Source: an uncultured cyanobacterium (GTDB lineage Bacteria; Cyanobacteriota; Cyanobacteriia; Cyanobacteriales; CAWUOF01). Taken from it: 64,000 nucleotides of DNA. Shown piece after piece: positions 36,751 to 51,632 of the stretch. The stretch's first letter is position 1. The number at the start of each line of letters is the position of its first letter. The position numbers were made by a program, and so were the translations under genes. The stretch is taken from the NCBI GenBank assembly GCA_963744145.1, contig CAVUSO010000001.1, forward strand, positions 288,001 to 352,000, in the 5' to 3' direction. The notes under the pieces are model-generated. The model was not told the DNA's origin. It did not search any database and was given only the letters and a program-made list of their open reading frames with translations.

Positions 36751-37563
36751 ATGCTACAGACTTTTACCCCTTTATTAAGAGTTAAACCGATTCCACCAGA
36801 AAAACTCGATGCTGAAGATCGGACAACTACTCAAGCAGTAGAACGGAAGATAAAACCTATTCATCCCTTTTTTCATTGGTGGGAAACAGTCCAAGCTGAT
36901 TTCCAGATTATTTTTGAGCGTGATCCTGCTGCTCGTAATTGGTTAGAAGTTCTTTGCTTTTACCCAGGTTTTCATGCTTTAGAGTTACATCGGATTGCCC
37001 ATTGGTTAAATAATCGGAAAATTCCCTTTTTTCCCCGTCTGATTTCTTATCTAACCAGGTTATTTACAGGAGTGGAAATTCACCCTGGTGCTGTGATTGG
37101 TAAGGGGGTATTTATCGATCACGGGATGGGAGTAGTCATTGGGGAGACAGCGATCGTCGGAGACTATACACTCATTTATCAGGGTGTGACTCTGGGAGGA
37201 ACAGGAAAAGAAAGTGGTAAACGTCATCCTACTCTTGGTCAGTATGTAGTGGTCGGAGCTGGAGCAAAAGTTCTAGGAAATATTGAAATTGGTGATCATG
37301 TTCGGGTTGGTGCAGGTTCAATTGTCCTCAGAAATGTCCCCTCCCAATGTACAGTGGTCGGAATTCCTGGTCGAAATATTTGTCCAATCCAAAAGTCCAC
37401 TTGTCCTTTAGACCATGAGCAAATCCCAGATGTAGAAGCTATAGCAATTCGTACTTTAGTCGATCGGATTGAGCAACTAGAAGAATTAGTTAAAAGTCAG
37501 TATGAACTGCAACAGAAGCAGAATCAAATAGTTAATCGTGAAAGGATTGAGGTGATGCTATGA
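36751..37563 (+). CDS. cysE: Serine O-acetyltransferase, nif-associated (NifP)
   Basis: RDPAA, YPG, EIHPGA, FIDHG, GKRHPT. Confidence 0.94.
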   Translation: MLQTFTPLLRVKPIPPEKLDAEDRTTTQAVERKIKPIHPFFHWWETVQADFQIIFERDPAARNWLEVLCFYPGFHALELHRIAHWLNNRKIPFFPRLISYLTRLFTGVEIHPGAVIGKGVFIDHGMGVVIGETAIVGDYTLIYQGVTLGGTGKESGKRHPTLGQYVVVGAGAKVLGNIEIGDHVRVGAGSIVLRNVPSQCTVVGIPGRNICPIQKSTCPLDHEQIPDVEAIAIRTLVDRIEQLEELVKSQYELQQKQNQIVNRERIEVML

Positions 37564-38693
37564 AGAGCGCCAATATAAATAAAACAATTCACATTAATGA
37601 TACAACACTACGTGATGGTGAACAAGCAGCAGGAGTGGCTTTTAATCTTGAAGAAAAAGTAGCGATCGCCACATTTTTAGATGCGATCGGTGTGCAAGAA
37701 TTAGAAGTTGGGATTCCCATAATAGGTCATGAAGAAGCTAGAGCCATTCGGGCGATCGCGGATTTAGGACTAAAAGCCAAATTAATCGGTTGGAATCGTG
37801 CTGTACCATCAGATATTCGGGCAGCGATCGCTTGTGGATTAAAACAAGTACATATCTCCGTACCTGTTTCTCCTATCCTGATCGAGGCTAAATTTCATGG
37901 GCAGTGGCGAACCATGTTAGAGTGCTTAGAAGAGACAATTAAGTATGCACTTGATGAAGGACTAGCTGTATCAATAGGTGGGGAAGACTCTTCCAGAGCT
38001 AATGAAAATTTCCTCTTAGATGTAGCATTATGTGCCCAAGAATGGGGAGCTTTTAGATTTCGCTTCTGCGATACAGTGGGAATTCTTGATCCGATCGCTA
38101 CCTATCAAAAAGTCAGCCAACTTGTCTCTAACCTATCTATTCCCATCGAGATGCACACCCATAACGATTTGGGATTAGCAACTGCTAATGCTTTAGCAGG
38201 AATCAAAGCTGGTGCTTTGTCAGTCAATACAACAGTCAATGGTTTAGGAGAAAGAGCCGGTAATGCTGCTTTAGAAGAAGTAGTAATGGCCCTCAAATGT
38301 ATCTATAAAATTGACCTGGGAATAGATACCAAACGTTTATTAGAATTATCACGTTTAGTTGCTCAAGCTTCTAATTGTCCAGTGCCACCTTGGAAAGCAA
38401 TTGTCGGAGCAAATACCTTTGCTCACGAATCTGGTATCCATGCACATGGAATCTTACAAAACCCTGTCACCTACGAACCTTTTGACCCCCAAGAAGTCGG
38501 TTGGGTTCGTCGTTTAGTCGTGGGTAAACATTCCGGTCGGCACTCAATTAAGCATTTTTTTGCCGAGCATGGGATGAACCTGAACCCAGAGGAAACCCAA
38601 TCAGTTTTGGAAGCAGTACGCGATCGAGCAGTGCAATCAAAACACAGTATGACGACAGAAGAACTGCTCAATTTAGCTACCCAAGGGAGATAA
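37560..38693 (+). CDS. nifV: Homocitrate synthase
   Basis: DTTLRDGEQ, HTHNDLG, GLGERAGN, GKHSG; nif context. Confidence 0.94.
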   Translation: MKSANINKTIHINDTTLRDGEQAAGVAFNLEEKVAIATFLDAIGVQELEVGIPIIGHEEARAIRAIADLGLKAKLIGWNRAVPSDIRAAIACGLKQVHISVPVSPILIEAKFHGQWRTMLECLEETIKYALDEGLAVSIGGEDSSRANENFLLDVALCAQEWGAFRFRFCDTVGILDPIATYQKVSQLVSNLSIPIEMHTHNDLGLATANALAGIKAGALSVNTTVNGLGERAGNAALEEVVMALKCIYKIDLGIDTKRLLELSRLVAQASNCPVPPWKAIVGANTFAHESGIHAHGILQNPVTYEPFDPQEVGWVRRLVVGKHSGRHSIKHFFAEHGMNLNPEETQSVLEAVRDRAVQSKHSMTTEELLNLATQGR

Positions 38694-38697
38694 ATCT

Positions 38698-38964
38698 ATG
38701 CAGCCAGATGAACTAGAACTGGACTTACCACCTCGTTTTGAAATAGGGGAAAAAGTCCAAACACGCAAATTAATCCGGAATGATGGGACATTTCCGGGTC
38801 AAGAAATTGGAGCAACTCTAGCAAAAAAAGGTGAAATTGGTTATGTAATTTCGATCGGTACATTTTTACAAAACTCCTATATTTATGCTGTGCATTTTAT
38901 GGGAACAGGCTTTATAGTTGGTTGTCGTGGTAGAGAATTAGAAACAGTAGAAACCAGAGTTTGA
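38698..38964 (+). CDS. nifZ: NifZ
   Basis: IRNDGTFPG, IGTFLQ, VGCR. Confidence 0.94.
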   Translation: MQPDELELDLPPRFEIGEKVQTRKLIRNDGTFPGQEIGATLAKKGEIGYVISIGTFLQNSYIYAVHFMGTGFIVGCRGRELETVETRV

Positions 38965-38975
38965 GGTAATTAAAA

Positions 38976-39182
38976 ATGAAAGTAATGTTACGTCGGGGTC
39001 AAACTGGCAAATTAATCGTTTATGTAGCCAAAAAAGACTTGGAAGAAGAAGTAGTCAGTCAAACTGATGAAGCAAATGGTAACAAAATTTTCACTTTAAC
39101 CAATGGTTGGGAATTAGAAATTGCTAATTTAAGTGAGCCATTACAATTACCACAAACAGTAGAAGCCAGACGTTTAAATTAG
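38976..39182 (+). CDS. nifT: NifT/FixU
   Basis: MKVMLR, YVAKKDLEE, NGW, PQTVEARR. Confidence 0.94.
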   Translation: MKVMLRRGQTGKLIVYVAKKDLEEEVVSQTDEANGNKIFTLTNGWELEIANLSEPLQLPQTVEARRLN

Positions 39183-39258
39183 ACTTGGAAAGGTGGTCAG
39201 GATAGTTCTATGCAGTTAAGTTAAATGCTCTGAGGGTCAACAACCGTTCACCCTCAGA

Positions 39259-39797
39259 CAATATGTTTAGTTAACTTGTAGGGGCGAAGCATTCGGGCGA
39301 TAATTCATCACTTAAATTGTACCCTGAGCGTTCCCTGAGCGAAGTCGAAGGGCGGAGTCGAAGGGCTATTAATTTTATATCCGAATGCTTCGCCCTTCTT
39401 CGCCGATATCTCCCAAAAAAAATCTTAACTGAATTTATTTTAATATATAGTTGATCTGTTGGTTTCATAAATGGTAAGGGCAAAGCATTTCGGTAATATT
39501 ATTCTTCCCTTCGACTACGCTCAGGCTAAACGCTTCAGCAACCATTTATGCGCCGAAATGCTTTGCCCCTACGGTTAACTGAACTGTATTGGCTGATAAG
39601 TTCTTCGCTGATATCTCCCAAAAAAAAATCTTAACTGAATTTATTTTAATATATAGTTGATCTGTTGGTTTCATAAATGGTAAGGGCAAAGCATTTCGGT
39701 AATATTATTCTTCCCTTCGACTACGCTCAGGGTAAACGCTTCAGCAATCATTTATGTGCCGAAATGCTTTGCCCCTACGGTTAACTGAACTGTATTG
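39259..39797. mobile_element. Composite MITE/REP-like repeat element, copy 2 (inverted relative to 4047-4492), with ~205-bp tandem duplication
   Basis: Ends CAATATGTTTAGTTAA / TTAACTGAACTGTATTG (at 39591 and 39797); 39396-39600 repeated at 39601-39806. Confidence 0.8.
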
Positions 39798-39877
39798 GCT
39801 GATAAGAATTAGGAGAAAATTGATGTTTTCGTTGAAATAAGTGCCAGAATTAAGCTTAATACTGAAATTGTTATATT

Positions 39878-41377
39878 TTACAGTTTACAAGTCTTTACGC
39901 GAGAAAAAAACTGATAGATCGTACAGGACTGATCCAACAAATTACCCCACGCATAAAAATTCCCTACCCCCCATATACCCCACCATCCCCAACTTGCCGC
40001 AGCGGGGAGGTGACCAAAACGTGCGAATGCGGTGCTAAATGTTAGGTCACTATAGTCCAACCATTTTTCTCCTTTCTTCCATCCTACTTTTATAGCAAAT
40101 TTACGTTTTATTACGCTATCTGCATTTGGATGTCCACCAACATCTTTACTCTCCCATATCTGTTTTTGAACGCTAAACCCAAAACGACCATCAGAGTATT
40201 TCATCCATAACTGATCTATAGTGCGAAAGTCTTTACAGGGAAATTTTAACCAATCATCACCAGTGAGATATCTTTCTTTTGTATTAGCAGCTCTAAGTAC
40301 AAGATCATAAGTTTTTTGATCAGCCTCTTTCCATAACCTATCAGCTAATAAGTTACAGAGATGAGTGTAATCTATATCTCTTTCACTTTCAAGAATAATT
40401 TGAGTTTGTCCAGATACTGGTGATTGGGAAAATTGTGCGTTAGGCGTTGATATATTGGGTATTGACTGACGTACTTGTTTGTTAGGTACTGATTTAGAAC
40501 TAAGCATTTGCAATACTTCACTAGCAGACTGATAGCGATCGCCCAAAGTAACCGATATCATTTTATCTAAGATCATCGCTAAATCATTATTAATATTGAC
40601 TAGCGATCGCCATACCCATTTCATTTGATAAAAGTCAAACAGTTTATCGACATAATTACCGTTTTGTTCTTCTAATAAACAACCCGTCAAAAGTCTAATA
40701 CAAGTAACACCTAAACTATATAAATCACTAGCGGGAAAAGCATGACCCTGTAGTTGTTCTGGAGCTGCGTAACCAGGAGTACCAATATTTGTACCTGCTC
40801 TTGTAAGAACAGTACCCGTAAGTTGCTTGGATACTCCAAAGTCAATTAACATCAAACGATTATTGGCATCTCTAATAATATTATCTGGTTTAATATCTCT
40901 ATGAATTACATTCTTTTGATGCAGAAACTCTAAAACAGGTAGAAGTTGATTTAATAAATTCCTAATCTTTTCTTCATCAAATCTGCCGTTCTGTTGTAAT
41001 TCCTTCAATAAATCTTTTCCATCAATGAACTCTTGTACTAAATATAACCGTCCATCCTGTTCAAAAAATGCTAGCAAATCTGGTATTTGGGGATGTTTAC
41101 CTAAATCTTTTAATCTGACAGCTTCTTGTTTAAATAATTCTGTAGCTTTTTGTAATGCACTACCACCTTGCAACTGAGGTAGAAATTGTTTAATCACACA
41201 GAATGTGCCCAGTCGTTGTTCGTCTATTGATTTGAATGTTCTCCCAAAACCACCCTCTCCGAGAAATTCTACTGCTCGATAGCGATCGCCCAGTAACAAC
41301 CTATTACCGCAGCGCACACAAAACTTTGTCCCAGATGGGTTGATATTCTCACACTCAGGGTTTAGACATAAGCTCAT
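39878..41377 (-). CDS. Ser/Thr kinase-GUN4 domain protein, paralog A
   Basis: 4-Cys N-terminus CLNPEC..CVRC, GEGGFG, HRDIKPDN, DFG, APE; GUN4 signature WKEAD..FPCKD..IDQLW..YSDGRFGFSVQKQIW..GHLP. Confidence 0.93.
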   Translation of the reverse strand: MSLCLNPECENINPSGTKFCVRCGNRLLLGDRYRAVEFLGEGGFGRTFKSIDEQRLGTFCVIKQFLPQLQGGSALQKATELFKQEAVRLKDLGKHPQIPDLLAFFEQDGRLYLVQEFIDGKDLLKELQQNGRFDEEKIRNLLNQLLPVLEFLHQKNVIHRDIKPDNIIRDANNRLMLIDFGVSKQLTGTVLTRAGTNIGTPGYAAPEQLQGHAFPASDLYSLGVTCIRLLTGCLLEEQNGNYVDKLFDFYQMKWVWRSLVNINNDLAMILDKMISVTLGDRYQSASEVLQMLSSKSVPNKQVRQSIPNISTPNAQFSQSPVSGQTQIILESERDIDYTHLCNLLADRLWKEADQKTYDLVLRAANTKERYLTGDDWLKFPCKDFRTIDQLWMKYSDGRFGFSVQKQIWESKDVGGHPNADSVIKRKFAIKVGWKKGEKWLDYSDLTFSTAFARFGHLPAAASWGWWGIWGVGNFYAWGNLLDQSCTIYQFFSRVKTCKL

Positions 41378-41687
41378 AACTTGTCAATAATCCACAGGTT
41401 TCGTGTATAAATAATAGCGGACAGTTAGCCCAAATGTCCAGTGAGGTGTCTTGTTACGGTGTGTTAAGCATTTTGTAGGCGATCGCTTAGATTGTGCGAG
41501 GTTTGATTGTGGGTTGATTAGAGGGCGATAGCTTTGGTTAGGTTTGGGGAGTGCGATCGCATATTTAGAATGATGTTATTCTTAGCTTCTGTGTCAGGTA
41601 TTGAGTTAGGGAAAAGCTGATTTTTTCGTAGAAATTAGTACCAAATTTAAGCTTGACAAATGACATGAAATTTTTATAACTCACAGG

Positions 41688-43877
41688 TTACAAGTCTTTG
41701 CGGAAGATAAGAAACCAACCAGTCAGCTTATTCCGCAAATACGGACTACAATTCCCAAAAAGACCGGAAACGCCTGCCGGGAGGTGGCCAAGTGGAGCGG
41801 TAGTGTTCAAGGTTAGGTCATTATCGTTCAACCAATTGCCTCCTTTTCTCCATCCTACTTTATCAGCAAATTTATGTATTATTTCATAACCTGCATCAGG
41901 ATGTCCACCAACATCTTTACTTTCCCAGATTTGTTTTTGAACGCTAAACCCAAAATGACCATCAGAGTATTTAATCCATAACTGATCTATTGTGCGAAGG
42001 TCTTTATAGGGAAACTTTAACCAATCGTCATCATTGAGATATTGTCCATTTTCACAATTAGCAGCTTTGAGTACAACCCTATAAGTTTCTTCATCAGCTT
42101 CTTTCCATTTACCAACAGCTAATAAGTCACGGAGAAGACTGTAATCTATTTCTATTTCACTCTCAAGAATAAGCTCTAGTTGCATTTTACAGTTTGCAAG
42201 TCTTTGTGCGAGAAAAGATGGTTTCAACCCTCCAAATCCCTCACGCCCCACATCTCCTGTGCCCCCAATCCACTGTTCCGGTAATATAATACCTACACAA
42301 GGGAAGTGGCCTATAGGTGCATCGGTATTAAATGTAAGATTGTTATAATCTAACCACTTTCCTCCTTTTCTCCATCCTACTGTATCACCAAATTTACGTT
42401 CTATCTCTATTTCTTCTTCTATTCCTGCGTTTGGATTTCCACCAACAGTTTTACTTTCCCAGATTTGTTTTTGGACACTATATCCAAAACGACCATCAGA
42501 ATATTTTACCCATAGCTGATCTATGGTACGAAGGTCTTTACAGGGAAACTTTAACCAATCATCACCATTGAGATATCCGTCTTTTTCACGATTAGCAGAT
42601 TCAAGTAAAAGATGGTAAGTTTTTTCATCAGCATCTTTCCAGTAACCAGCAGCTAATAAGTTTCTAAGAGGAATGTAATCTATATCTCTTTCACTGTCTA
42701 GAATAAGTTCTGCTGCTGTTATATTTTGTTGTGGTGACGATGATATTACTTCAATTTGGTTTTGTGGATGTGATGTTAATTCTATTACTGGCTTCATGTC
42801 TTGATTTATTGTTTCATTTAATTCAGTAATAATCCTTTGCTGAATTTTTTCTACATCTGCATCACGTAAACATAAATGAACACTAGCCCATTCCTCTAAT
42901 TCTTTAATAACTTTATCATCTAAAGGATAATTTTTAGAAATTTTTTGTCTATATTCTTCTTCATAACGTTTTAAGCTTTCGTGATATAATTGATGATGCT
43001 TTATAACACTACTTATTATTTCTTCAGCTTGCTCATCAGAAAGCTGTAAGTTCTCTTGTTTTGTTTTTAAAATATCACGATTAAGCTTAGATATTTCTCC
43101 ATCTTTAATTCGCATTTCAACTTCCTGACAAAATCTTTTCTCAGGGGTAGGAGCCATACTTATCAAAATATTATATCCTTCATTATCTAGAATAATTTTA
43201 GGCTCCATTTTGGGCTTGACTTCCTTGACTTTTGCTTTGGCATATTTATGTAATTCTTGGATATGAATTTTACCATCACCATCTGTATCAGCAGCACCAG
43301 TTTCAATACCTTCTACTAGATGCTTTGTATAAACCGATAATTCAGAGCCTTCATGTTGAAATGAAGTCTGATTTTTTGAGGAAGAAGCTAGTATTACTCT
43401 TCCCTCTGCACCTAATTCTTTATCTAATAAATCAATATCTATACCTTTAGGTTGCCAACCAATCGCAAAAGCACCGCTATAACAACAGTCTAAAATAATT
43501 ATTTGACGCTTTGCATAGTTACCATGCTTTGACATTTTTTGGATGAAACTAGCTGAAGCAGCAGTGGCTAGGAAATTATTTTTTGTGGTAATCCGAGTTG
43601 CTAGATAAAGTTGACCATCATCGTCTTTAATACCATGTCCAGAAAAAAATAGTAGAATTAAATCATCTTTATTACTACTTTGAAATAGTTTTTGAATTTC
43701 TTCAGTCATCTGAAGGTATTCGGGATTAATTAAAAAATTAACACTATCAAACCCTCCCATTTCAGGATTTTCTAATACCCGTTTCATTGCCTTTACATCA
43801 TTAGGTGGTGCAGATAAAGGATTAATGTCTTCTCCATATTCGCTAACACCTATTAGTAATGCTATTTTTTTAGGCAT
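41688..43877 (-). CDS. Caspase-like peptidase (C14) fused to two tandem GUN4 domains
   Basis: KIALLIGVSEY, FSGHG (His) and LDCCYSG (Cys) dyad intact; two GUN4 signatures. Confidence 0.92.
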   Translation of the reverse strand: MPKKIALLIGVSEYGEDINPLSAPPNDVKAMKRVLENPEMGGFDSVNFLINPEYLQMTEEIQKLFQSSNKDDLILLFFSGHGIKDDDGQLYLATRITTKNNFLATAASASFIQKMSKHGNYAKRQIIILDCCYSGAFAIGWQPKGIDIDLLDKELGAEGRVILASSSKNQTSFQHEGSELSVYTKHLVEGIETGAADTDGDGKIHIQELHKYAKAKVKEVKPKMEPKIILDNEGYNILISMAPTPEKRFCQEVEMRIKDGEISKLNRDILKTKQENLQLSDEQAEEIISSVIKHHQLYHESLKRYEEEYRQKISKNYPLDDKVIKELEEWASVHLCLRDADVEKIQQRIITELNETINQDMKPVIELTSHPQNQIEVISSSPQQNITAAELILDSERDIDYIPLRNLLAAGYWKDADEKTYHLLLESANREKDGYLNGDDWLKFPCKDLRTIDQLWVKYSDGRFGYSVQKQIWESKTVGGNPNAGIEEEIEIERKFGDTVGWRKGGKWLDYNNLTFNTDAPIGHFPCVGIILPEQWIGGTGDVGREGFGGLKPSFLAQRLANCKMQLELILESEIEIDYSLLRDLLAVGKWKEADEETYRVVLKAANCENGQYLNDDDWLKFPYKDLRTIDQLWIKYSDGHFGFSVQKQIWESKDVGGHPDAGYEIIHKFADKVGWRKGGNWLNDNDLTLNTTAPLGHLPAGVSGLFGNCSPYLRNKLTGWFLIFRKDL

Positions 43878-43890
43878 TTCACTAAGTATT

Positions 43891-44268
43891 TTATGTATTA
43901 GACAATAAATCTTGAACAGTTTCTTTTGTTATAGGTAAATTTTGGCTTGTTGTTTTTATTTTAATTTTTTTATCTCCATCTTTTGTAATTTCAAGTTCTA
44001 TTTCAATAGGTTTATCTTGTAGACGCTCTTTAAACCATGCAAAAACAAATTGAATATTAAATAATTTCACTACAGTTGTAATAGACCCAAGTAATGTCTG
44101 AATGCTTTTTTTATTTAGGTCTATATTTGGGTCTTCAGTAAAATCAGCTTTTTCAACTGCATCAATTTCACGTAATTCTTGCAACAATTTTTCAGTCAAT
44201 TCTAATAATTCGTCATCTTCTAATGTTGGATCTGCTAAACCAAAAGTTATTTCAACTAGCTCTGTCAT
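43891..44268 (-). CDS. EACC1-like small protein upstream of caspase
   Basis: 125 aa, acidic helix (ELLELTEKLLQELREID), central hydrophobic stretch, beta-rich C-terminus; 13 bp before caspase; GGAG RBS. Confidence 0.65.
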   Translation of the reverse strand: MTELVEITFGLADPTLEDDELLELTEKLLQELREIDAVEKADFTEDPNIDLNKKSIQTLLGSITTVVKLFNIQFVFAWFKERLQDKPIEIELEITKDGDKKIKIKTTSQNLPITKETVQDLLSNT

Positions 44269-44282
44269 TTTGGCTCCTTATG

Positions 44283-44456
44283 TTAATTTTTGTTTCTTTT
44301 TATAGTACGATGAGACAAATCCCGAATTAATTCCCGGATAATAGAGTGTTTAATCTCCTGGCGTTCTAAGCAATAAGCCTCCAGCGCCAAATACTTACTC
44401 TCTGGCAATTCAATATTCAACCGCTTAATCGGCTCAGTTAGCACTTTTCTGGGCAT
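44283..44456 (-). CDS. Ribbon-helix-helix (CopG-like) small DNA-binding protein, 57 aa (not in ORF track)
   Basis: MPRKVLTEPIKRLNIELPESKYLALEAYCLERQEIKHSIIRELIRDL...; strand-helix-helix pattern; stop 14 bp before EACC1-like gene. Confidence 0.65.
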   Translation of the reverse strand: MPRKVLTEPIKRLNIELPESKYLALEAYCLERQEIKHSIIRELIRDLSHRTIKRNKN

Positions 44457-44612
44457 TGTGGTTATTTCACAAAACTCGTGTATTTATTCTAGTGTATAAT
44501 CCGGCAAACGTCCAATAGCAAGTAATCGATATCTGGGCAAGTTTCTGAATGCCCAACCCCAACCAAGAAATATCCTTTTTATTCAAAAAGGTTTGCTAAT
44601 CTAAAAGCTAAT

Positions 44613-45515
44613 TCAAAGGCTAAATATTCTCTCATCAGTTAATACCTGCATAGATTGTCTTTTCTCCAAATTTTTCCAATGTTTCATAGCTTCTTTATAA
44701 CGCTCTTTTAATGCGCTTGCATCAGGTTTATTACAGTTATGCTTATTTAATTTTAAGAATGTATTATCATATTGCTGATAATGGCTTTTTTCTAAGCTAG
44801 GATGGATATGAATTTTTTTATTTTCATCAATTGCTATAAGATGAGCATCAAAAAGCTTATGAATATCAACACAAAGAAGCAATCCATTAGAAGGATCATT
44901 GTTTTGGTTTTTTTCGTAAGGCTCTATATGAGCAGCTTCTAAAAGTATTTGAATATCAGAATCAGTAATTAGACAACGATAATTATACAAATTTAACAAT
45001 TGTAGGCGGAATTTATACTGTCCTAGTCTATTAGCTAGTCTATTAGATTTAGATTGTATAAAATTTATAACATAAGGATCTGAAATAATAGCTCGATTAA
45101 GTTTCGCAAATTGAAGCTTTGCGTATTGAAAATTAGTTGATGGAAAAATAGAAAGCTGGCCATAATTTAGCTTCTCGTGATGTTTATTCAAGTAAGTTGT
45201 ATCCAACATCTTTAAGTCTATATATCCTAACTCTGCATAATCAAAAACTGCATCGTACAAATTCATTCCTTCAAAATTTGCATATTGAAGGTTTGCTCCT
45301 TCAAAGTTTGTTCCATCCAATTCAGATCCTCGAAAGTCAGCATTTTGAAGTTCTGCCCCTCGAAAGCTAGCATATTCAAGATTAGCACCCCGGAAATCTA
45401 CACCATTAAGAATCAAATGATCCAAAATTAGGTGATTTAAATCTACCGCTCGAAAATCTCGTTGCCCGTTTTCGTACTGAGCCTTAATTTTATCAATATC
45501 CATATTATGTATCAT
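44613..45515 (-). CDS. Pentapeptide-repeat protein fused to HNH endonuclease
   Basis: A(D/N)F/L pentapeptide repeats; C-terminal FR..LL..Y..RCLIT..LEAAHIEP..NGLLL..DIHKLFD. Confidence 0.82.
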   Translation of the reverse strand: MIHNMDIDKIKAQYENGQRDFRAVDLNHLILDHLILNGVDFRGANLEYASFRGAELQNADFRGSELDGTNFEGANLQYANFEGMNLYDAVFDYAELGYIDLKMLDTTYLNKHHEKLNYGQLSIFPSTNFQYAKLQFAKLNRAIISDPYVINFIQSKSNRLANRLGQYKFRLQLLNLYNYRCLITDSDIQILLEAAHIEPYEKNQNNDPSNGLLLCVDIHKLFDAHLIAIDENKKIHIHPSLEKSHYQQYDNTFLKLNKHNCNKPDASALKERYKEAMKHWKNLEKRQSMQVLTDERIFSL

Positions 45516-45617
45516 CCATTTTTTGTTTTTTGACCCGATGAAACTATGCTAACATATATAGAGGCGTTATGGCAAGATATGTGTAAGCCAGATTAGTGAA
45601 TCAAAAATCTTAACCAT

Positions 45618-46685
45618 CAGAAGTTACGCAGTTGAACTGGGGATGTGGTAAAAAAAGATCATGAATCCACCTAAATCCACGCCCCTCGAATACATTAACT
45701 TCCTGATTGCGGCAAAAGGCATACAGTTGTAGCGAAGCCGAGCGTGTTCAACCAATCGCAGAAAACCGAGCAGCCCACGATGCGACTTGTGTTGAGCGTA
45801 GTCGAAACATTAACCGTTTGCTGCATCGAAGGTCACCAGACCCCAATGAATTCTGGCAGGAAGCCAAAGACTATGTTGAGTTAAACCAAGGGGTTCTGGT
45901 CATTGATGATACAATGCTTGACAAGTGGTATGCCAAAAAGATGGAGTTGGTCAGTCGGCAATGGTCAGGGAAGCATAAACGTGTTGTCCAAGGCATCAAT
46001 CTGACTACCCTATTATGGTCAGATGGGGATAAACATATCCCATTAGACTATCGACTTTATGAGAAAGAAGTGGACGGGGCTACCAAAATGACCACTTTCG
46101 AGCCATGTTGCTTAATGCCCATGCCAGAGGCTTTCATGCCCAGTGTGTAGCAATTGAATAGTTGGTTTAGTTCTTTGGCCAATTTGAAATTAATTGCTAG
46201 TTATAGCTGGACTTGGTTGACTCGACTGAAATCTAATCGATTGGTAAATGCGGATCATACCGAAAACCGACCAATTAGGGAGGTAGCGTTAGCCCAAACG
46301 GGCACAGTAGTTCATCTGAAAGGTTATGGGTTCATTAAAGTATTCAAGATTGTTGCCCCAGACGGTGACATTGACTACTGGGCGACCAATGACTTACAGA
46401 TGAGCAGCTTAAAACGTTTACAGTGGGCGGAATTTGAATGGTCAATTGAGGAATATCATCGAGGTCTAAAGCAATGCTGTGGCGTGGAAAGATCCCAAGT
46501 TCGGTCGGCTCGCGCAAGGGCGTAATCACATTGGTTTGGCAATTCGGGCCTTTCTCCGTTTGGAGATGCACTGGTTTAACACTGGCATCAGTTGGTATGA
46601 GTCCAAAATTAGTATTGTGCGTGAAGCAGTCCGCTCTTACTTAGAGGCCCATTGGCTGTCTCTCCCGTCAACTGCGTAAGTCCTG
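45618..46685 (+). mobile_element. IS701-like insertion sequence, defective
   Basis: TIR CAGAAGTTACGCAGTTGA vs CAGGACTTACGCAGTTGA (16/18); direct repeat ACCAT at 45613-45617 and 46686-46690. Confidence 0.88.
45661..46679 (+). pseudogene. DDE transposase with several frameshifts
   Basis: MNPPK start at 45661; fragments with VIDDT, SWF, WSIEEYHRGLKQ in different frames. Confidence 0.85.
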
Positions 46686-46955
46686 ACCATGACGAGGATG
46701 AAGTGTCAGAGTGTGGCTGGAAAAAACTAGCCTGTAGTCTTTACTACAGAAACTGCTTGTGCGCTCAAGCTAATGCAATATAGAACAACTACGGTAGGAT
46801 CGCTTTGTTGACAGGTTGTTGGAGTATGATCACACTAAAGAGCATATTAAGTCTTAATTATTAAAGTATTTTTAGCTGTGACATTTCAGATGGTGTAAAA
46901 CATCCACTCTAGATTTACTCAGGACTAAATTTTCAAGCAATTTGGCAACCTTTAA

Positions 46956-48635
46956 TCATTGTATTCGTCCCTGTAAAATAGCATTTTTAATTTCCAAGAG
47001 AGGTCCTAAAACATCTGGTGCAAGAGCCAATTGAAGTACCATCTCATAATCTTGTTGTGCCAAAGGATGTGTGTGCGAACCTAGATTGCGAATTCTAGAA
47101 ATATCAGTCCAGGCATCTATTACTCTGCTAGATAAGGAACTACCAATTGCCTGTTGAATCATTAAATCTAATCTTTCATTTGGTGAATTAGTCATAGTTA
47201 TAACTAGGTGTAAAGCATCTCCAAGAGTAATAAACCGATGACGACCACTTGCACGATTAACCCAATCTAACTGATTGATATCAACAGTTATTACTCTATT
47301 TCCTCTATGTCCTGTTTCTACAATTCCTCGTTTTTGTGGAAGCGTAGGATCATGCAGGGTAAAATATGTCGGCATAGTGATGTCACGCGCCGCTCTTGCA
47401 GCTTGAATCATCGATAAGTTTACTTCTAGTTCAAAAGCTTTCCATACACCTTGAGCGCCAGGTGTAAAATCAATATCCATCATTGGTTGTAGTCTTTGTG
47501 CAGCGGGATTTTGATTAACTATTGGTTGTGGTCTTTGTGCCGCAGGATTCCGATTAATTGGTTGTGGTCGTTGTGTAGCAGGATTTTGATCAATTGATTG
47601 TGGTCGTTGTGCAGCGGGATTTTGTGCAACAGGATTCCGATCAATTGGTTGTGGTCTTTGGATATTACGATTCTGTCCATATCCTCCCTGGGGTCTTCGT
47701 CTACCAAGAGGACCAATACCTTCAAGTGCGTTTTCTGCTAGACTTTCAAGAAAAGAGCCAACAGCAAGAGATGTTTCAATCATTACTGCTGATTCATCAT
47801 TAAGAAGCGGTGGAAGTTCGACTGTATTTTGCAAATTCTGAAGAACTCTTGCCGCAACAAATGCTGGAGCTATGAGCCTTCCCGTTGCATCTTCAATTAC
47901 AGCATCTTCCGATCCTATCCCTGTCAAATCAAGGTCTTCAAATTGCTGAGAACGATTGTTTCGCCTCAATGAGTTGAGACTATTTTCAACCATATCCAAT
48001 TGTCTACCAAGTTCATAGCGATAATCGTTAGCTTCTAGACCTCGTTCCGTGTCAAAAGTATTTAAAATGTTATAAAAAGCCCTTAATCCTTGACGATTTG
48101 ACTCATTTTGTAGACGATAATCTACTTGATCGCTACATATTGCTTCAAGGGTAGTAAATATATGCCCAATATTTGGAATTCCATATTGATCAGGAAGTCT
48201 TGCAAGTTCATTTAATTGCACATCGAGATGTTCTGATGAGGTTGGGGAAATCACGTATTCTAATTGCCAAAGATTTGTTGATGCAACAATGGCAGGAAGA
48301 GAATGCCAAGGAATGCCAAACAAACGTGCTATTTCCCGTATTAATGGTCCCTCGTTAGTTGTAAATGATAAAGTACCAGCAGTTGCCTGATAATTTCTCC
48401 ACCATCGTGAATTACTACGATCTTGCAGCCATTCATCTGGGGGATCTAACACGGCAAAAAAAGCAAGGTTTTCACCTGTACTTTCATGCAAATTCGCAAA
48501 TTCAGCTTTCAAATATTCAGTAAAAATTACATCACTTGGCTTGAAAAGAATTGCGACCTGTATTGGAAACCTTGCAAAATACTTTTGTGAAGGCGATCCC
48601 GCATTAAAGATATTTGTTTTTATTGGAAATACCAT
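46956..48635 (-). CDS. Hypothetical protein with internal Q/P/R repeats and candidate C-terminal HEPN domain
   Basis: 559 aa; KAFELE helix and RNLGSH (Rx4H) near the C-terminus. Confidence 0.6.
   Translation of the reverse strand: MVFPIKTNIFNAGSPSQKYFARFPIQVAILFKPSDVIFTEYLKAEFANLHESTGENLAFFAVLDPPDEWLQDRSNSRWWRNYQATAGTLSFTTNEGPLIREIARLFGIPWHSLPAIVASTNLWQLEYVISPTSSEHLDVQLNELARLPDQYGIPNIGHIFTTLEAICSDQVDYRLQNESNRQGLRAFYNILNTFDTERGLEANDYRYELGRQLDMVENSLNSLRRNNRSQQFEDLDLTGIGSEDAVIEDATGRLIAPAFVAARVLQNLQNTVELPPLLNDESAVMIETSLAVGSFLESLAENALEGIGPLGRRRPQGGYGQNRNIQRPQPIDRNPVAQNPAAQRPQSIDQNPATQRPQPINRNPAAQRPQPIVNQNPAAQRLQPMMDIDFTPGAQGVWKAFELEVNLSMIQAARAARDITMPTYFTLHDPTLPQKRGIVETGHRGNRVITVDINQLDWVNRASGRHRFITLGDALHLVITMTNSPNERLDLMIQQAIGSSLSSRVIDAWTDISRIRNLGSHTHPLAQQDYEMVLQLALAPDVLGPLLEIKNAILQGRIQ
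47482..47660 (-). repeat. Intragenic ~36-nt tandem repeat encoding QRPQPI(D/N)(R/Q)NPAA
   Basis: About five imperfect units visible in DNA and protein. Confidence 0.85.
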
Positions 48636-49110
48636 AGGAGCTAACGAAAAATAGAATCTAATGTTGTATTTTTTGAATCGCAGATTTTGGATGGAAAAGT
48701 TGTCTAGCTTTTTGATAAAGGCATAAACTTACTTGCAACCAAAATAACCTTACTTATACCATCAAAGCACCGAACCCAATATTTGTCAACAGAATACCAG
48801 CACTACTCACTGCTTAAAGTTTATTAAGCCTTGTGCATCAATTATTTACTACTTGATCATCTACTCAAATAGAACATTTACAAGTTGTCGCGGAGAAGAG
48901 CTTACCGTTGGCTTAGGGGTCGGGATGAATCAGGCTGCCGATGGTTAGGGGCTGTTGATAGCTTGGCGATCGCGAAATGGCTAAAAAATACGGTTGGAAA
49001 CTGGTCGATATAGAGGAAACAAATAACGATATCCTACCTGTAGATTGTATATTTGACGGCCAAACCGAATTCCCAAAGTCCTATTATGATCACGATGAGG
49101 AGTAACAATA

Positions 49111-49248
49111 ATGCGTAAGTGGATTGTTTTCCGTGCTGATGGACGACAACCTGGCGGGCTAACCCGCAAATATGCCCACACGGGGTCACTCACAAAAACT
49201 TTAGCCCAGAGGATCTCCTGGGTGCAGAAGGTATTCTCAAGCAATTAA
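49111..49248 (+). pseudogene. Short, probably truncated hypothetical ORF (MRKWIVFRAD...)
   Basis: GAGGAG RBS then ATG at 49111; only 45 codons. Confidence 0.35.
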
Positions 49249-49399
49249 CAAAAGCATTTAAAGTAACTAGGTATTAGTTATTGTCGCAAAATGTAAGCGA
49301 ATTATTGCCTATAAGCATTAGAGAAAATTTGATATTTTTGTAGTAATTAGTACCAAATTTTAGCTTGGCAAATGGCATGAAGTTGTTAGAGCTTAAAGG

Positions 49400-50818
49400 T
49401 TACAAGTCTTGGCGCGAGAAAAGATCCGCGCAAAACCCCCAGAACCCTCCACCATCTACTATTACCACTACACCAAGGGCCCGCGCGGGAAGGTGGCCAG
49501 AAAGAGCAGTGATGTTAAATGTTAGATTACTATAGTCTAACCAGTTTCCTCCTTTTCTCCATCCTAATTTATCAGCAAATTTGTAATACGTATTCCAATC
49601 TGCATTAGGATGTCCACTAACACCCTGACTTTCCCAGATTTGTTTTTGAACGCTAAACCCAAAACGACCATTAGAATATTTTACCCATAACTTATCTATG
49701 GTGCGAAGGTCTTTACATGGAAACTTTAACCAATCATCACCAGTGAGATATTCCTCTTGTTCACGATTAGCAGCTTTAAGTACAAGATGATAAGTTTTCT
49801 TGTCAGCTTCTTTCCATTTTCTAGTAGCTAATAAGTCACGGAGAGGAGTGTAATCTATTCCTTTTTCACTTTCAAGATTATCTTGATTTTGTGGAGCTAT
49901 TGGTTGTGAAGAAAACTCGGTTTTAGGTATTGATTTAGAACTAAGTGCTTGCAATATTTCACTAGCAGATTGATAGCGATCACCCAAAGGAACCGATATC
50001 ATTTTATCTAAAAAAACACCCAAATCATTGCTAACACTAGCATATTGTCGCCACACCCATTTCATCTTATAAAAATCAAACAACTTATCTATATTGTTGC
50101 CATTTTGTTCTTCTAATAAACAACCTGTTAAAAGTCTAATACAAGTAACACCTAAACTATATAAATCACTAGCGGGAAAAGTTTGACCCTGTAATTGTTC
50201 TGGAGCTGTATAACCAGGAGTACCAACTGATGTACCCACTCTTGTCATTACAGTACCGCTTAATTGCTTGGATACACCAAAATCAATTAACATTAAACGA
50301 TTATTAGCATCTCTAATAATATTCTCAGGTTTAATATCTCTGTGAATTACATTATTTTTATGAATAAATTCTAAAACAGGTAGAAGTTGATTTAATAAAT
50401 TTTTAATTTTTTCCTCATTAAATTTGCTGTTTTGTTGTAGTTCCTTTAATAAATCTTGTCCGTCAATAAATTCTTGTACTAAATATAGCCGTCTATCTTG
50501 TTCAAAGAATGCTAATAAGTCAGGTATTTGGGGATGTTTACCTAAGTCCCTTAATCTGACAGCTTCTTGTTTAAATAATTCTGTAGCTTTCTGTAATGCT
50601 CCACTACCTTGCAACTGAGGTAGAAATTGTTTAATCACACAGAATGTGCCCAGTCGTTGCTCGTCTATTGATTTGAATGTTCTCCCAAAACCACCCTCAC
50701 CGAGAAATTGTACTGCTCGATAGCGATCGCCCAGTAACAACCTATTACCGCAGCGCACACAAAACTTTGTCCCAGATGGGTTGATATTCTCACACTCAGG
50801 GTTTAGACATAAGCTCAT
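49400..50818 (-). CDS. Ser/Thr kinase-GUN4 domain protein, paralog B
   Basis: Same architecture as 39878-41377; HRDIKPEN, DFG, APE; GUN4 signature. Confidence 0.93.
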   Translation of the reverse strand: MSLCLNPECENINPSGTKFCVRCGNRLLLGDRYRAVQFLGEGGFGRTFKSIDEQRLGTFCVIKQFLPQLQGSGALQKATELFKQEAVRLRDLGKHPQIPDLLAFFEQDRRLYLVQEFIDGQDLLKELQQNSKFNEEKIKNLLNQLLPVLEFIHKNNVIHRDIKPENIIRDANNRLMLIDFGVSKQLSGTVMTRVGTSVGTPGYTAPEQLQGQTFPASDLYSLGVTCIRLLTGCLLEEQNGNNIDKLFDFYKMKWVWRQYASVSNDLGVFLDKMISVPLGDRYQSASEILQALSSKSIPKTEFSSQPIAPQNQDNLESEKGIDYTPLRDLLATRKWKEADKKTYHLVLKAANREQEEYLTGDDWLKFPCKDLRTIDKLWVKYSNGRFGFSVQKQIWESQGVSGHPNADWNTYYKFADKLGWRKGGNWLDYSNLTFNITALSGHLPARALGVVVIVDGGGFWGFCADLFSRQDL

Positions 50819-50994
50819 AACTTGTCAATAATCCACAGGTTTCGTGTATAAATAATAGCGGACAGTTAGCGCAAATGTCCAGTGAGGTGTCTTGTTACGG
50901 TGTGTTAAGCATTTTGTAGGCGATCGCTTTAAAATAGACATTACATATCATAAATTTTTCCAAAAATAGGTTATTCCCTCAATTATTCCTAAAC

Positions 50995-51231
50995 ATGATG
51001 ACAACCAAAGAGCAATTACTTGAAGAACTTGAAACCCTTCCCGAAGAACTCATTAGTGAAGCATTGGACTACATCTGCTTCATCAAAAATCGTTATAGTC
51101 TAAAACTGGAAGCCATTCGGGCGATCGCAAAACTCGACTCAGACTGGTGGGAAAACCTCAATAACTTCACCCCTGATTTTCTGGACGAGCGATCACAGCC
51201 TAACCTGCCCAACAGAGAGGACATATTTTGA
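50995..51231 (+). CDS. vapB: Antitoxin (VapB-like) of type II TA pair
   Basis: Small acidic ORF with FTPDFLDERxQP tail; TGATG overlap with PIN toxin. Confidence 0.75.
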   Translation: MMTTKEQLLEELETLPEELISEALDYICFIKNRYSLKLEAIRAIAKLDSDWWENLNNFTPDFLDERSQPNLPNREDIF

Positions 51232-51632
51232 TGAGATTTCTGCTCGACACAAATATCTGTATTTATATTATCAAACAGAAGCCTATTTCCGTTCGTCAAC
51301 GTTTCCAATCAGTCAATACAGGACATATCGGTATTTCAATTGTTACACTTGCCGAATTGGAGTATGGTGCTGCTAAAAGTAAAAACCCTATAAGAAACCG
51401 TGAAACTCTTAAAGTATTCTGCGCTCCTTTCGAGATCATCGACTTTAATGAAGAAGATGCGCGAATTTTTGGCAAGATTCGTACTGATTTAGAGCAACGA
51501 GGACAGCCTATTGGCAGTTATGACTTGCTTATTGCCGCACAAGCCCTTAGTCGCGGTCTTATTATCGTAACGAACAATATTAAAGAATTTAGTCGCATTG
51601 ATGGGCTAGTTATTGAGAATTGGGTCAAATAG
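51231..51632 (+). CDS. vapC: PIN-domain toxin VapC
   Basis: LLDTNICI, ELEYG, IGSYDLLIAAQA, TNNIKEF, ENW. Confidence 0.93.
   Translation: MRFLLDTNICIYIIKQKPISVRQRFQSVNTGHIGISIVTLAELEYGAAKSKNPIRNRETLKVFCAPFEIIDFNEEDARIFGKIRTDLEQRGQPIGSYDLLIAAQALSRGLIIVTNNIKEFSRIDGLVIENWVK

What the first reader, a model, noticed from the sequence alone, without database searches (positions are those of the whole stretch)
39888..49486. Hypervariable G-rich segments of 116, 87, 103 and 84 nt that read the same 3' motif in all three frames
Distance from the GH(L/F)P Pro codon to the first stop position is 116 nt (39888-40003), 87 nt (41691-41777), 103 nt (42197-42299) and 84 nt (49403-49486), i.e. phases 2, 0, 1, 0. 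The same DNA therefore yields FSRVKTCKL*, IFRKDL*, FLAQRLANCKM and LFSRQDL*. The segments are G-rich and Gly/aromatic-rich in an otherwise AT-rich island. They cannot be aligned, although the GUN4 DNA upstream shares long identical runs such as TGTTTTTGAACGCTAAACCCAAAA.
Basis: seen in the sequence. Interest (0 to 1): 0.82.

Follow-up and report, generated by a model that had tools for sequence, protein, structure and literature searches.

The report
Frame-proof hypervariable tails on GUN4 genes
Many cyanobacterial GUN4 sensor genes end in a short stretch that is repeatedly swapped for brand-new DNA of any length, followed by a conserved signal that finishes the protein correctly in whichever reading frame arrives; this looks like an undescribed way for bacteria to vary a ligand pocket.

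Summary
Three minus-strand genes carry four GUN4 domains: two Ser/Thr kinases and one caspase with two domains. After the GHLP/GHFP codons come 66-98 nt of unalignable, G+T-rich DNA. Next is a conserved DNA element, TTCTCGCG.AAAGACTTGTAA.CTGTAA.ATATAA, which really is read in three different frames. The own genome holds 46 such GUN4 ends. The exact element occurs in at least 123 cyanobacterial loci across the phylum, in all three frames. It is built of 7-nt repeats, so each frame gives an ..(L/F)xSR.. C-terminus and a stop (TAA N4 TAA N4 TAA in 102 of 123). Loci with 96-99% identical flanks carry unrelated tails of different length. Tail identity is bimodal: identical or unrelated. Replacement is anchored at the 3' element and reaches a variable distance upstream. 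No donor copies exist. Only the used frame is kept open. The tail replaces helices a7/a8 of the GUN4 porphyrin pocket. A class-2 Y1 (HUH, IS200/RAYT-like) transposase gene lies convergent, at a fixed distance, in about a third of loci. It is the best candidate driver but unproven. My searches of the held paper library found no description of this.

The parts
39878..41377 (-). K1: Ser/Thr kinase + GUN4 domain gene (499 aa)
   Evidence: ORF; Pkinase 152.9 bits and GUN4 118.5 bits
39906..40003 (-). K1 variable segment (98 nt) between the GHLP Pro codon and the conserved core
   Evidence: A .17 C .10 G .38 T .35
39871..39905 (-). K1 conserved 3' element, TAA at 39885-7, 39878-80 (the stop used) and 39871-3; read as FSRVKTCKL*
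41688..43877 (-). C: EACC1-type caspase + two GUN4 domains (729 aa)
41709..41777 (-). C-terminal variable segment of gene C (69 nt)
41679..41708 (-). conserved 3' element of gene C, read as (F)RKDL*, stop 41688-90
41591..41678 (-). conserved non-coding 3' flank of gene C, ending CAATACCTGACAC; homologous to the fixed-length flank seen in other cyanobacteria
42215..42299 (-). internal variable segment of gene C (85 nt), after GHFP of the first GUN4 domain
42185..42214 (-). internal copy of the 3' element with the first stop changed (TTGCAA); read as FLAQRLANCKM and running on into the second GUN4 domain
49400..50818 (-). K2: Ser/Thr kinase + GUN4 domain gene (472 aa)
49421..49486 (-). K2 variable segment (66 nt); AF2 shows a low-confidence beta hairpin
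49391..49420 (-). K2 conserved 3' element, read as LFSRQDL*, stop 49400-2; AF2 pLDDT 83-90 for this C-terminus

Best explanation
Each segment is the variable part of a three-part cassette that ends most multi-domain GUN4 genes of cyanobacteria. The parts are the GUN4 core up to GHLP, a variable stretch (about 25-140 nt), and a conserved DNA element. In many copies a fixed-length flank follows the element. The variable stretch encodes the part that in canonical GUN4 forms helices a7/a8 and the Arg pair of the porphyrin pocket, so changing it should change what the sensor binds. It does not drift. It is replaced wholesale by new, unrelated, G+T-biased DNA of arbitrary length. These events start at the conserved 3' element and reach a variable distance upstream. 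The element is made of 7-nt repeats (TCTCGCG/TCGAGAC/TTGTAAA/CTGTAAC/ATATAAG), so a shift of frame is compensated: each frame gives an (L/F)xSR.. C-terminus and its own stop. Selection then keeps only tails that are open in the frame used. Shown: the architecture, its spread, the replacement pattern and polarity, the lack of donors, and the selection for an open frame. Inferred: that a dedicated DNA-level process makes the new sequence. I think the most likely initiator is the class-2 Y1 (HUH) transposase-like enzyme encoded convergently beside many cassettes. It would nick single-stranded DNA at the element. The old tail would be lost, the gap refilled by slipped or untemplated synthesis, and the ends rejoined.
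For: Own genome: 46 GUN4 ends were found. Of these, 19 carry the element with 5 mismatches or fewer, in frames 8/4/7. A second subfamily has about 95% identical GUN4 DNA, unrelated tails and a homologous TAG N4 TAA N4 TAG element. Tails are G+T-rich with no codon periodicity: 1335 nt, A .16 C .11 G .39 T .34; 1953 nt from 34 parsed tails of 40 loci; 5876 nt from 90 tails. The longest non-periodic G/T-only runs of the genome (48, 45, 43 nt) are all GUN4 tails, and 8 of the 27 runs of 24 nt or more are. Frames are used 46/24/20 among the 90 with GHLP. Stops are spaced 7+7 nt in 102 of 123 loci, against 14 of 1971 random windows with packed three-frame stops. Replacement: L170 and L175 have 501/506 identical bases upstream and 569/572 aligned bases downstream, yet their tails (78 and 72 nt) are unrelated. 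L057 and L137 have flanks 96% and 98% identical and tails of 31 and 88 nt that are unrelated. Six Nostocales copies of one locus have tails of 29-139 nt that share nothing, and the downstream flank is a single full-length copy in 4 of the 5 genomes searched. In 20 Dolichospermum-genus genomes plus the metagenome contigs (38 cassettes), 57 pairs have at least 90% identical upstream DNA: 3 have identical tails and 54 have unrelated tails, with none in between. Polarity: the L186/L189 and L097/L167 pairs keep only the 5' start of the tail. In G011 the replaced stretch runs about 100 nt into the GUN4 domain yet still ends at TCTCTTCTCTCGC. No donors were found in the own genome, and no tail is shared between different loci. 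Direct repeats inside tails: 15 of 86 against 4.6 expected. An open frame is selected: 108 of 109 scorable cassettes are open into the element, against 36.7 of 89 expected; the off-frames are open at chance, 37 and 38 of 89. Structure: AF2 mean pLDDT is 91.8, the tail is a hairpin at pLDDT about 50, and the C-terminal motif scores 83-90. The best folds are ligand-bound GUN4. Pro208/Leu210, Arg214/Arg217 and a7/a8 line the pocket (passages of PMC1084334). Y1: 69 of 123 loci have a flank of fixed length (144 nt in 56 loci, 145 in 11) ending in CGATACCTGGCAC, which is the 3' end of a Y1_Tnp gene (Pfam 72.8 bits). A Y1 gene or a 3' remnant lies downstream in 42 of 123 loci, and it is convergent in 28 of 28 with long flanks. 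Of the 52 listed Y1 matches, 18 lie 70-410 nt from an element. Elements occur in 25 of 34 Y1-positive genomes and 35 of 117 Y1-negative genomes (related genomes are not independent).
Against: There is no direct evidence of ongoing change. The single public run holding the window is low-depth contigs and shows nothing. Tails are conserved between species in four ortholog sets and across families in one more (L012/16/21, L022/35, L027/33, L001/6; L018/L034/own 3067040). G157 and G172 share two identical tails. So turnover is episodic and not universal. Y1 was not found in 117 of 151 genomes, yet 35 of those carry elements. Only 1 of 5 Nostoc genomes with the replaced-tail locus has an intact Y1. 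The own genome's only full Y1 is not beside a cassette. No hairpin of the kind Y1 enzymes recognise was found in the element. Orthology of L170/L175 and of most Dolichospermum pairs could not be checked over longer flanks, so some pairs may be paralogues. Not all tails are G+T-rich (the Nostoc set). The step that makes new sequence is unknown.
Confidence: 0.55

Rival explanations
1. Cassette exchange by ordinary homologous recombination. The conserved GHLP-proximal coding DNA and the conserved 3' element act as homology anchors. Tails are swapped between paralogues of one genome or taken up from other strains, so nothing is made de novo.
For: Both anchors are conserved at the DNA level among many paralogues per genome. 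Genomes hold up to 27 scored matches to the GUN4 query, and the own genome holds 46 GUN4 ends. The bimodal tail identity fits swaps. Orthology of many compared pairs is unproven.
Against: No two of the 46 own tails resemble each other, and no tail matches anything else in the genome. Among 38 Dolichospermum-set cassettes no tail recurs at a locus with different flanks; local alignment scores are 15 or less apart from the three identical pairs. The L170 tail is not found in 3 related genomes. Three species of one genus (G011, G072, G115) share no tail. Exchange does not explain the G+T bias without codon periodicity, or the overshoot into the domain with tandem duplications.
Confidence: 0.17
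2. Ordinary fast evolution. The tail is a weakly constrained low-complexity linker that accumulates slippage indels and substitutions. The flanks look young because gene conversion homogenises them. The three frames are frozen accidents tolerated because the C-terminus hardly matters.
For: Some tails hold homopolymer runs (G6-G9) and direct repeats. Some tails are stable across species. AF2 gives low confidence for the tail.
Against: Loci with 96-99% identical flanks, non-coding DNA included, have tails with no residual similarity and different lengths. There are no intermediate identities among 57 pairs. The element is conserved as DNA across the phylum whatever the frame. The used frame is open in 108 of 109 cassettes, against about 41% expected. 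The C-terminal motif is modelled with confidence.
Confidence: 0.12
3. Scars of a mobile element. The conserved element and flank are the end of an IS200-like (Y1) element that inserted behind an ancestral GUN4 gene. Three-frame stops are a common feature of IS ends. The variable stretch is junk left by repeated imprecise excision or insertion and has no function of its own.
For: Y1 genes and 3' remnants of different length lie at a fixed distance in 42 of 123 loci. Three-frame stops occur at the end of the element. Some truncated copies lack any GUN4 gene: 8 of 123 loci have no GUN4 signature, and L169/L172 are examples.
Against: Y1 is low-copy (mostly 1-2 matches per genome, up to 4 counting fragments), not a multiplying IS. 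No subterminal hairpins were found. There is strong selection for an open frame into the element. The C-terminal peptide is modelled as docked, and R160 is nearly invariant in alignment A2. This rival shares the Y1 step with the best explanation and differs only on whether the result is used.
Confidence: 0.1
4. A diversity-generating retroelement (DGR) or another reverse-transcriptase system rewrites the tails from a template repeat.
For: Cyanobacterial DGRs target the C-terminal ligand-binding part of kinase and caspase fusion proteins (PMC7517822, passages). The boundary is 3'-anchored and the 5' extent is variable, as at a DGR target.
Against: Tails differ in length and cannot be aligned. 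No second copy of any tail (a template) exists in the genome. The three RT genes of the genome lie at 3.19, 5.01 and 5.09 Mb, far from the window. The composition bias is against both A and C, not an adenine-specific pattern.
Confidence: 0.03

Closest known systems
Diversity-generating retroelements (DGR) of cyanobacteria
   Same: Targeted variation of the C-terminal ligand-binding part of Ser/Thr-kinase and caspase multi-domain proteins. A conserved element fixes the 3' boundary and the 5' extent is variable.
   Different: No template repeat, no reverse transcriptase nearby, no adenine-specific changes. Length is not conserved, the fold is GUN4 rather than a C-type lectin, and the neighbour is a Y1 HUH gene.
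Domesticated Y1 transposases: RAYT/TnpA-REP, class 2 of the HuH survey (PMC6006769)
   Same: Y1_Tnp domain with NHIH and YIHANP motifs and a long C-terminal tail. Low copy number. Tied to a conserved DNA element dispersed in the genome.
   Different: The element is not a palindromic REP hairpin. It lies inside the end of a coding sequence and borders a hypervariable stretch. This link is not described in the passages I read.
Junctional diversity in V(D)J recombination (analogy only)
   Same: A junction of arbitrary length and G-biased new sequence, usable in any frame, next to a transposase-derived gene, in a receptor's binding site.
   Different: No evidence of change within a lifetime, no recombination signal sequences, a different enzyme class, and prokaryotic.
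Contingency loci (slipped-strand phase variation)
   Same: Homopolymer G and T runs, and reading frame that differs between copies.
   Different: All three frames are productive, and whole sequences are replaced rather than repeat units gained or lost.
Canonical GUN4 (Mg-chelatase cofactor; PDB 1y6i, 4xkc, 1z3x)
   Same: The same core fold and GHLP motif.
   Different: The 25 residues after GHLP (Arg214, Arg217, a7, a8) are replaced by the variable tail plus the LFSR motif. The domain is fused to kinases or caspases.

Membership tests
GUN4 domain (PF05419) | Profile match over the curated cut-off | tested here: met
   118.5, 252.4 (two domains) and 139 bits against a cut-off of 29.2
GUN4 domain (PF05419) | GUN4 core fold | tested here: met
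   AF2 pLDDT 91.8; Foldseek 4xkc E 1e-8, TM 0.78
GUN4 domain (PF05419) | Porphyrin-binding Arg214/Arg217 and helices a7/a8 after GHLP | tested here: not met
   Profile and PDB alignments stop near GHLP. The segment is replaced by variable sequence. Only one near-invariant Arg (R160, in LFSR) remains.
Diversity-generating retroelement target | Template repeat about 90% identical to the variable region | tested here: not met
   No second copy of any of the own tails
Diversity-generating retroelement target | Reverse transcriptase in the neighbourhood | tested here: not met
   RVT_1 matches only at 3.19, 5.01 and 5.09 Mb of C1; the window is 0.288-0.352 Mb
Diversity-generating retroelement target | Variable copies of equal length differing at template-adenine sites | tested here: not met
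   Lengths run from 25 to about 140 nt and the copies cannot be aligned
IS200/IS605 or RAYT (Y1 HUH transposase) for the neighbouring gene | Y1_Tnp domain with HUH and catalytic Tyr motifs | tested here: met
   PF01797 72.8 bits, positions 5-120 of 121. NHIH and YIHANP are read directly in the translations.
IS200/IS605 or RAYT (Y1 HUH transposase) for the neighbouring gene | Subterminal hairpins or flanking REP palindromes | tested here: not met
   RNAalifold on 64 flanks gives 3 invariant pairs and no covariation
IS200/IS605 or RAYT (Y1 HUH transposase) for the neighbouring gene | RAYT equivalog score | tested here: not met
   NF047646 scores 23.4 bits against a cut-off of 80, on a C-terminal fragment only
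Silent-cassette gene conversion (pilE/pilS type) | Donor copies of the variable segment elsewhere in the genome | tested here: not met
Simple-sequence contingency locus | Alleles differ by the number of repeat units | tested here: not met
   Tails are unrelated in sequence; homopolymer runs occur in only some tails

The most novel reading that the evidence does not exclude
Cyanobacteria possess a junctional diversification system driven by a domesticated HUH (Y1) transposase. The enzyme opens single-stranded DNA at a conserved heptamer-repeat element behind GUN4 sensor domains. The old tail is lost and new, largely untemplated G+T-biased DNA of any length is filled in. The element then decodes the result in whichever frame arrives. 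This rewrites the ligand pocket of kinases and caspases of conflict systems and would be a prokaryotic functional analogue of V(D)J junctional diversity.
Probability: 0.3. Interest if true: 0.95.

Novelty: categorically new. Interest (0 to 1): 0.86.

Why it matters
Known ways for prokaryotes to vary one protein site on purpose are few: DGRs, invertible or silent cassettes, and slipped-strand switches. This cassette fails the defining tests of each. Yet it shows sharp boundaries, wholesale replacement at nearly identical loci, and a DNA element conserved across a phylum that makes any reading frame productive. If a dedicated process lies behind it, it is a new route to receptor diversity. It would act on the ligand pocket of sensor domains attached to kinases and caspases of cyanobacterial conflict systems. 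It would also give a first function to a class of single-copy Y1 transposase relatives. Even if it is passive, a coding element selected to work in all three frames is unusual.

Tried and rejected
Reads: one public run (X1, soil metagenome, contigs at depth 3-8) holds the window. The contigs that could be laid are identical, and nothing can be said about heterogeneity.

RNA and signals:
- No Rfam family and no tRNA in 38500-51500.
- No consensus RNA structure in 64 aligned 3' flanks.
- No sigma-70-like promoter or intrinsic terminator at the K1 and K2 ends.
- An antisense promoter that I read by eye in the flank consensus (TTTACA N17 TATGTT) is therefore unsupported.

Ideas dropped:
- That G/T-only DNA is kept because it is open in all frames: the off-frames are open only at chance level.
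- A tail-anchor membrane helix: many tails carry Asp, Arg and Gly runs, and AF2 gives a hairpin. No membrane predictor was run.
- Templated insertions from inverted flanks: 2 and 5 of 86 against 3.1 and 4.6 expected.

Y1 checks that did not help:
- G/T runs near the own genome's Y1 gene are HIP1-flanked repeats, not GUN4 remnants.
- A PDB sequence search with Y1 found nothing at E of 1 or less.
- Y1 presence does not track tail replacement among 5 Nostoc genomes.

Other:
- Longer flanks of L170/L175 could not be fetched.
- Earlier notes of this scan hold nothing.
- Papers: six full-text searches found no description of a hypervariable GUN4 tail or a Y1-GUN4 link. I read passages only of PMC7159879, PMC7517822, PMC6006769 and PMC1084334. 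Their supplements were not opened, and the neighbourhood tables of PMC7517822 (Additional files 4 and 5) could bear on the Y1 link.
Full report
**What is in the window.** Three genes on the minus strand end in GUN4 domains.
- K1 (39878-41377) is a Ser/Thr kinase with one GUN4 domain.
- C (41688-43877) is a caspase of the EACC1-associated type with two GUN4 domains.
- K2 (49400-50818) is a Ser/Thr kinase with one GUN4 domain.

The Pro codons of GH(L/F)P lie at 40004-6, 42300-2, 41778-80 and 49487-9. GHLP is the canonical motif of solved GUN4 proteins.

**Checking the observation.** A DNA alignment of the four copies shows three zones. The GUN4 DNA is conserved. A stretch that cannot be aligned follows. 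Then comes a shared element, TTCTCGCG.AAAGACTTGTAA.CTGTAA.ATATAA. In three copies a shared non-coding flank comes after it.

The element is read as FSRVKTCKL*, (F)RKDL*, LFSRQDL* and FLAQRLANCKM. The internal copy has lost the stop of its frame and reads on into the next domain.

Pairwise identities are 0.78-0.85 upstream, 0.51-0.59 in the tail, 0.70-0.90 in the 30-nt core and 0.56-0.81 downstream. The tail is therefore less alike than the non-coding DNA beyond it.

**The whole genome.** The genome is 7.7 Mb with 39.4% G+C. A tblastn search finds 46 GUN4 ends that reach GHLP. Nearly all are followed by a tail of 18-63 residues rich in G, W, V, F, L and C.
- Nineteen carry the element with 5 mismatches or fewer, in frames 8/4/7.
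- A second subfamily (five copies shown) has about 95% identical GUN4 DNA and unrelated tails. Its homologous element, TCTCTTTTCTCTTCTCTAGACTCTAACATATAG, is read as FLFSRL*, LFSLL* or SLLSSLDSNM...
- The variable DNA is A .16, C .11, G .39, T .34, and the values are the same at all three codon positions. The bias therefore does not come from amino-acid choice in one frame.
- Two tails hold no A or C at all. Of the 27 G/T-only runs of 24 nt or more in the genome, 8 are GUN4 tails, and these include the three longest non-periodic runs.

**Other cyanobacteria.** GUN4 domains are multi-copy in 151 of 151 genomes of the order.
- Thirty-four tails parsed from 40 fetched loci show the same composition and the same three endings.
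Seventy-nine of the 80 titled records are cyanobacteria, from Nostocales to Leptolyngbya-like, Halothece, Crocosphaera, Spirulina and Arthrospira.
- With a strict GHLP, 90 loci are read in the three frames 46/24/20: LFSR[VI]ETCK[LV]*, SSLASRLVNCNI* and LLSRRDL*.
- Eighteen more loci have variant motifs such as AHLP or GEFP and are also open into the element. One has a premature stop, 8 show no GUN4 signature and 6 have too little upstream DNA.

**How the element works in three frames.** The element is periodic in sevens: TCTCGCG / TCGAGAC / TTGTAAA / CTGTAAC / ATATAAG. A shift of seven bases changes the frame by one, so Ser-Arg, Cys and the stop recur one repeat earlier or later. Stops are spaced 7+7 nt in 102 of 123 loci. 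Packed three-frame stops occur in 14 of 1971 random windows of the same loci.

**Is the tail really hypervariable?** The results point both ways, and I report both.

Stable tails:
- Four ortholog sets between species of one genus keep their tails at 86-97% identity: L012/16/21, L022/35, L027/33 and L001/6.
- One tail is conserved across families.
- G157 and G172 share two identical tails.

Replaced tails:
- Six Nostocales copies of one locus have highly similar flanks and tails of 29-139 nt with nothing in common. The boundaries are sharp, at the Pro codon and at TTCTTCTCTCGC.
- The downstream flank of that locus is a single full-length copy in 4 of the 5 genomes searched, which supports orthology.
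- L057 and L137 have flanks 96% and 98% identical and unrelated tails of 31 and 88 nt.
- L170 and L175 are two metagenome contigs with 501/506 and 569/572 identical flank bases and unrelated tails of 78 and 72 nt.
- Among 38 cassettes from 20 Dolichospermum-genus genomes and the metagenome contigs, 57 pairs have at least 90% identical upstream DNA. Three pairs have identical tails (two of them from one source) and 54 have tails at chance-level identity of 0.31-0.63. None lies in between.

Caveat: I could not confirm orthology of most Dolichospermum pairs, nor of L170/L175.

**Polarity of replacement.** Where part of a tail is retained, it is the 5' start (the L186/L189 and L097/L167 pairs). 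In G011, beside an intact Y1 gene, the replaced stretch reaches about 100 nt into the GUN4 domain and truncates the gene. It holds tandem duplications and still ends exactly at the element. Replacement is therefore anchored at the 3' element, and its 5' extent varies. In working genes selection sets the limit at GHLP.

**Where the new sequence comes from.**
- No tail has a second copy in the own genome.
- No tail recurs at a different locus in the Dolichospermum set.
- The L170 tail is not found in three related genomes.
- Three species of one genus share no tail.
- Tails contain more internal direct repeats than shuffled tails (15 of 86 against 4.6). They also contain some direct copies of the immediately upstream DNA (10 against 5.5, up to 19 nt). 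Inverted copies show no excess.

This fits local synthesis with slippage better than import of cassettes.

**Selection on the tail.** Given each tail's own composition, 36.7 of 89 should be free of stops. The used frame is open in 108 of 109 scorable cassettes, while the two unused frames are open in 37 and 38 of 89. The C-terminal peptide is therefore needed, and my idea that G/T-only DNA is kept open in all frames is wrong.

**Where the tail sits in the protein.** An AF2 model of the K2 domain with its tail used an alignment of 58 sequences and has mean pLDDT 91.8. The variable part is a hairpin of low confidence (about 50), and the C-terminal motif scores 83-90. The nearest folds are ligand-bound GUN4 structures.

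In Synechocystis GUN4, Pro208 and Leu210 of GHLPLL reach into the 'greasy palm'. Arg214 and Arg217 hold the porphyrin carboxylates, and a7/a8 residues line the pocket (passages of PMC1084334). The tail replaces exactly this stretch.

**The neighbour.**
- In 69 of 123 loci the element is followed by a flank of fixed length (144 nt in 56 loci, 145 in 11) that ends in CGATACCTGGCAC.
- That end is the 3' end of a convergent gene with a Y1_Tnp domain (72.8 bits). The gene carries NHIH and YIHANP motifs and a long basic tail.
- A Y1 gene or a 3' remnant lies downstream in 42 of 123 loci, and it is convergent in 28 of 28 loci with long flanks.
- In the order, Y1 occurs in 34 of 151 genomes, mostly as 1-2 matches (up to 4 counting fragments).
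- Eighteen of the 52 listed Y1 matches lie 70-410 nt from an element on the other strand.
- Elements occur in 25 of 34 Y1-positive genomes and in 35 of 117 Y1-negative genomes. Related genomes are not independent, so this contrast is only suggestive.

Against a simple link:
- The own genome's full Y1 gene (C1:6188691-6189506) is not beside a cassette, and only a remnant is.
- Only 1 of 5 Nostoc genomes with the replaced-tail locus has an intact Y1.
- The flank has no conserved hairpin.

The HuH survey (PMC6006769, passages) lists class-2 Y1 proteins of low copy number, some without REPs and with C-terminal tails, and gives them no known role.

**Verdict.** The cassette fails the tests for a DGR target, for silent-cassette conversion and for a slipped-strand switch. 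I think the most likely cause is a localised DNA-level replacement process anchored at the conserved element, with the Y1 enzyme as the candidate initiator. The sequence-making step is not known, and no change has been seen directly.

Noticed in passing
window 43891-44268 (-) and 44283-44456 (-): A 125-aa ORF with no Pfam match lies directly upstream of the caspase-GUN4 gene, whose caspase matches NCBIfam 'caspase, EACC1-associated type'. It may be the constant component of such a conflict system. L164 (G132) has a 135-aa ORF in the same place.
   Followed up: partly
window 44613-45515 (-): A 300-aa protein joining pentapeptide repeats to an HNH_2 endonuclease domain sits between the GUN4 genes.
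   Followed up: no
window 46956-48635 (-): A 559-aa ORF with no Pfam match contains a run of NPAAQRPQPI-like repeats.
   Followed up: no
window 45707-46525 (+): Two adjacent ORFs in a stretch of higher G+C (0.43-0.50) look like pieces of a broken transposase gene. This is judged from the translation only and was not searched.
   Followed up: no
window 39500-39883: In run X1 this stretch, just downstream of K1, has a summed contig depth of 328, against 1-14 elsewhere, and many contigs with loose ends. It is probably a dispersed repeat.
   Followed up: no
window 37560-39182 (+): The ORFs converging on K1 look like nitrogen-fixation genes (a homocitrate-synthase-like 377-aa protein, then two small ORFs). 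The names are recalled from the translations and were not tested.
   Followed up: no
own genome C1:7455752-7460457 (-) and C1:1293536-1303350 (+): One ORF holds four tandem GUN4 domains, each with its own variable tail read through the element, and a further GUN4 copy lies next to it. Elsewhere, four GUN4 copies lie in a row within 10 kb (kinase parts not checked).
   Followed up: partly
L164 (G132:C1:1960500-1967500), 3072-3300: Here the caspase-GUN4 tail lacks the element. It holds a 26-nt tandem duplication and runs antisense into the 3' end of the Y1 gene, so the two ORFs overlap.
   Followed up: partly
own genome C1:6185741 and C1:6187671: Two copies of a G/T-only 25-mer flanked by GCGATCGC (HIP1) lie 1-3 kb from the full-length Y1 gene. 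No GUN4 similarity was found.
   Followed up: yes
L169 and L172 (metagenome contigs): These hold copies of the element with a short G/T-rich stretch but with non-GUN4 DNA upstream. They may be truncated cassettes.
   Followed up: no
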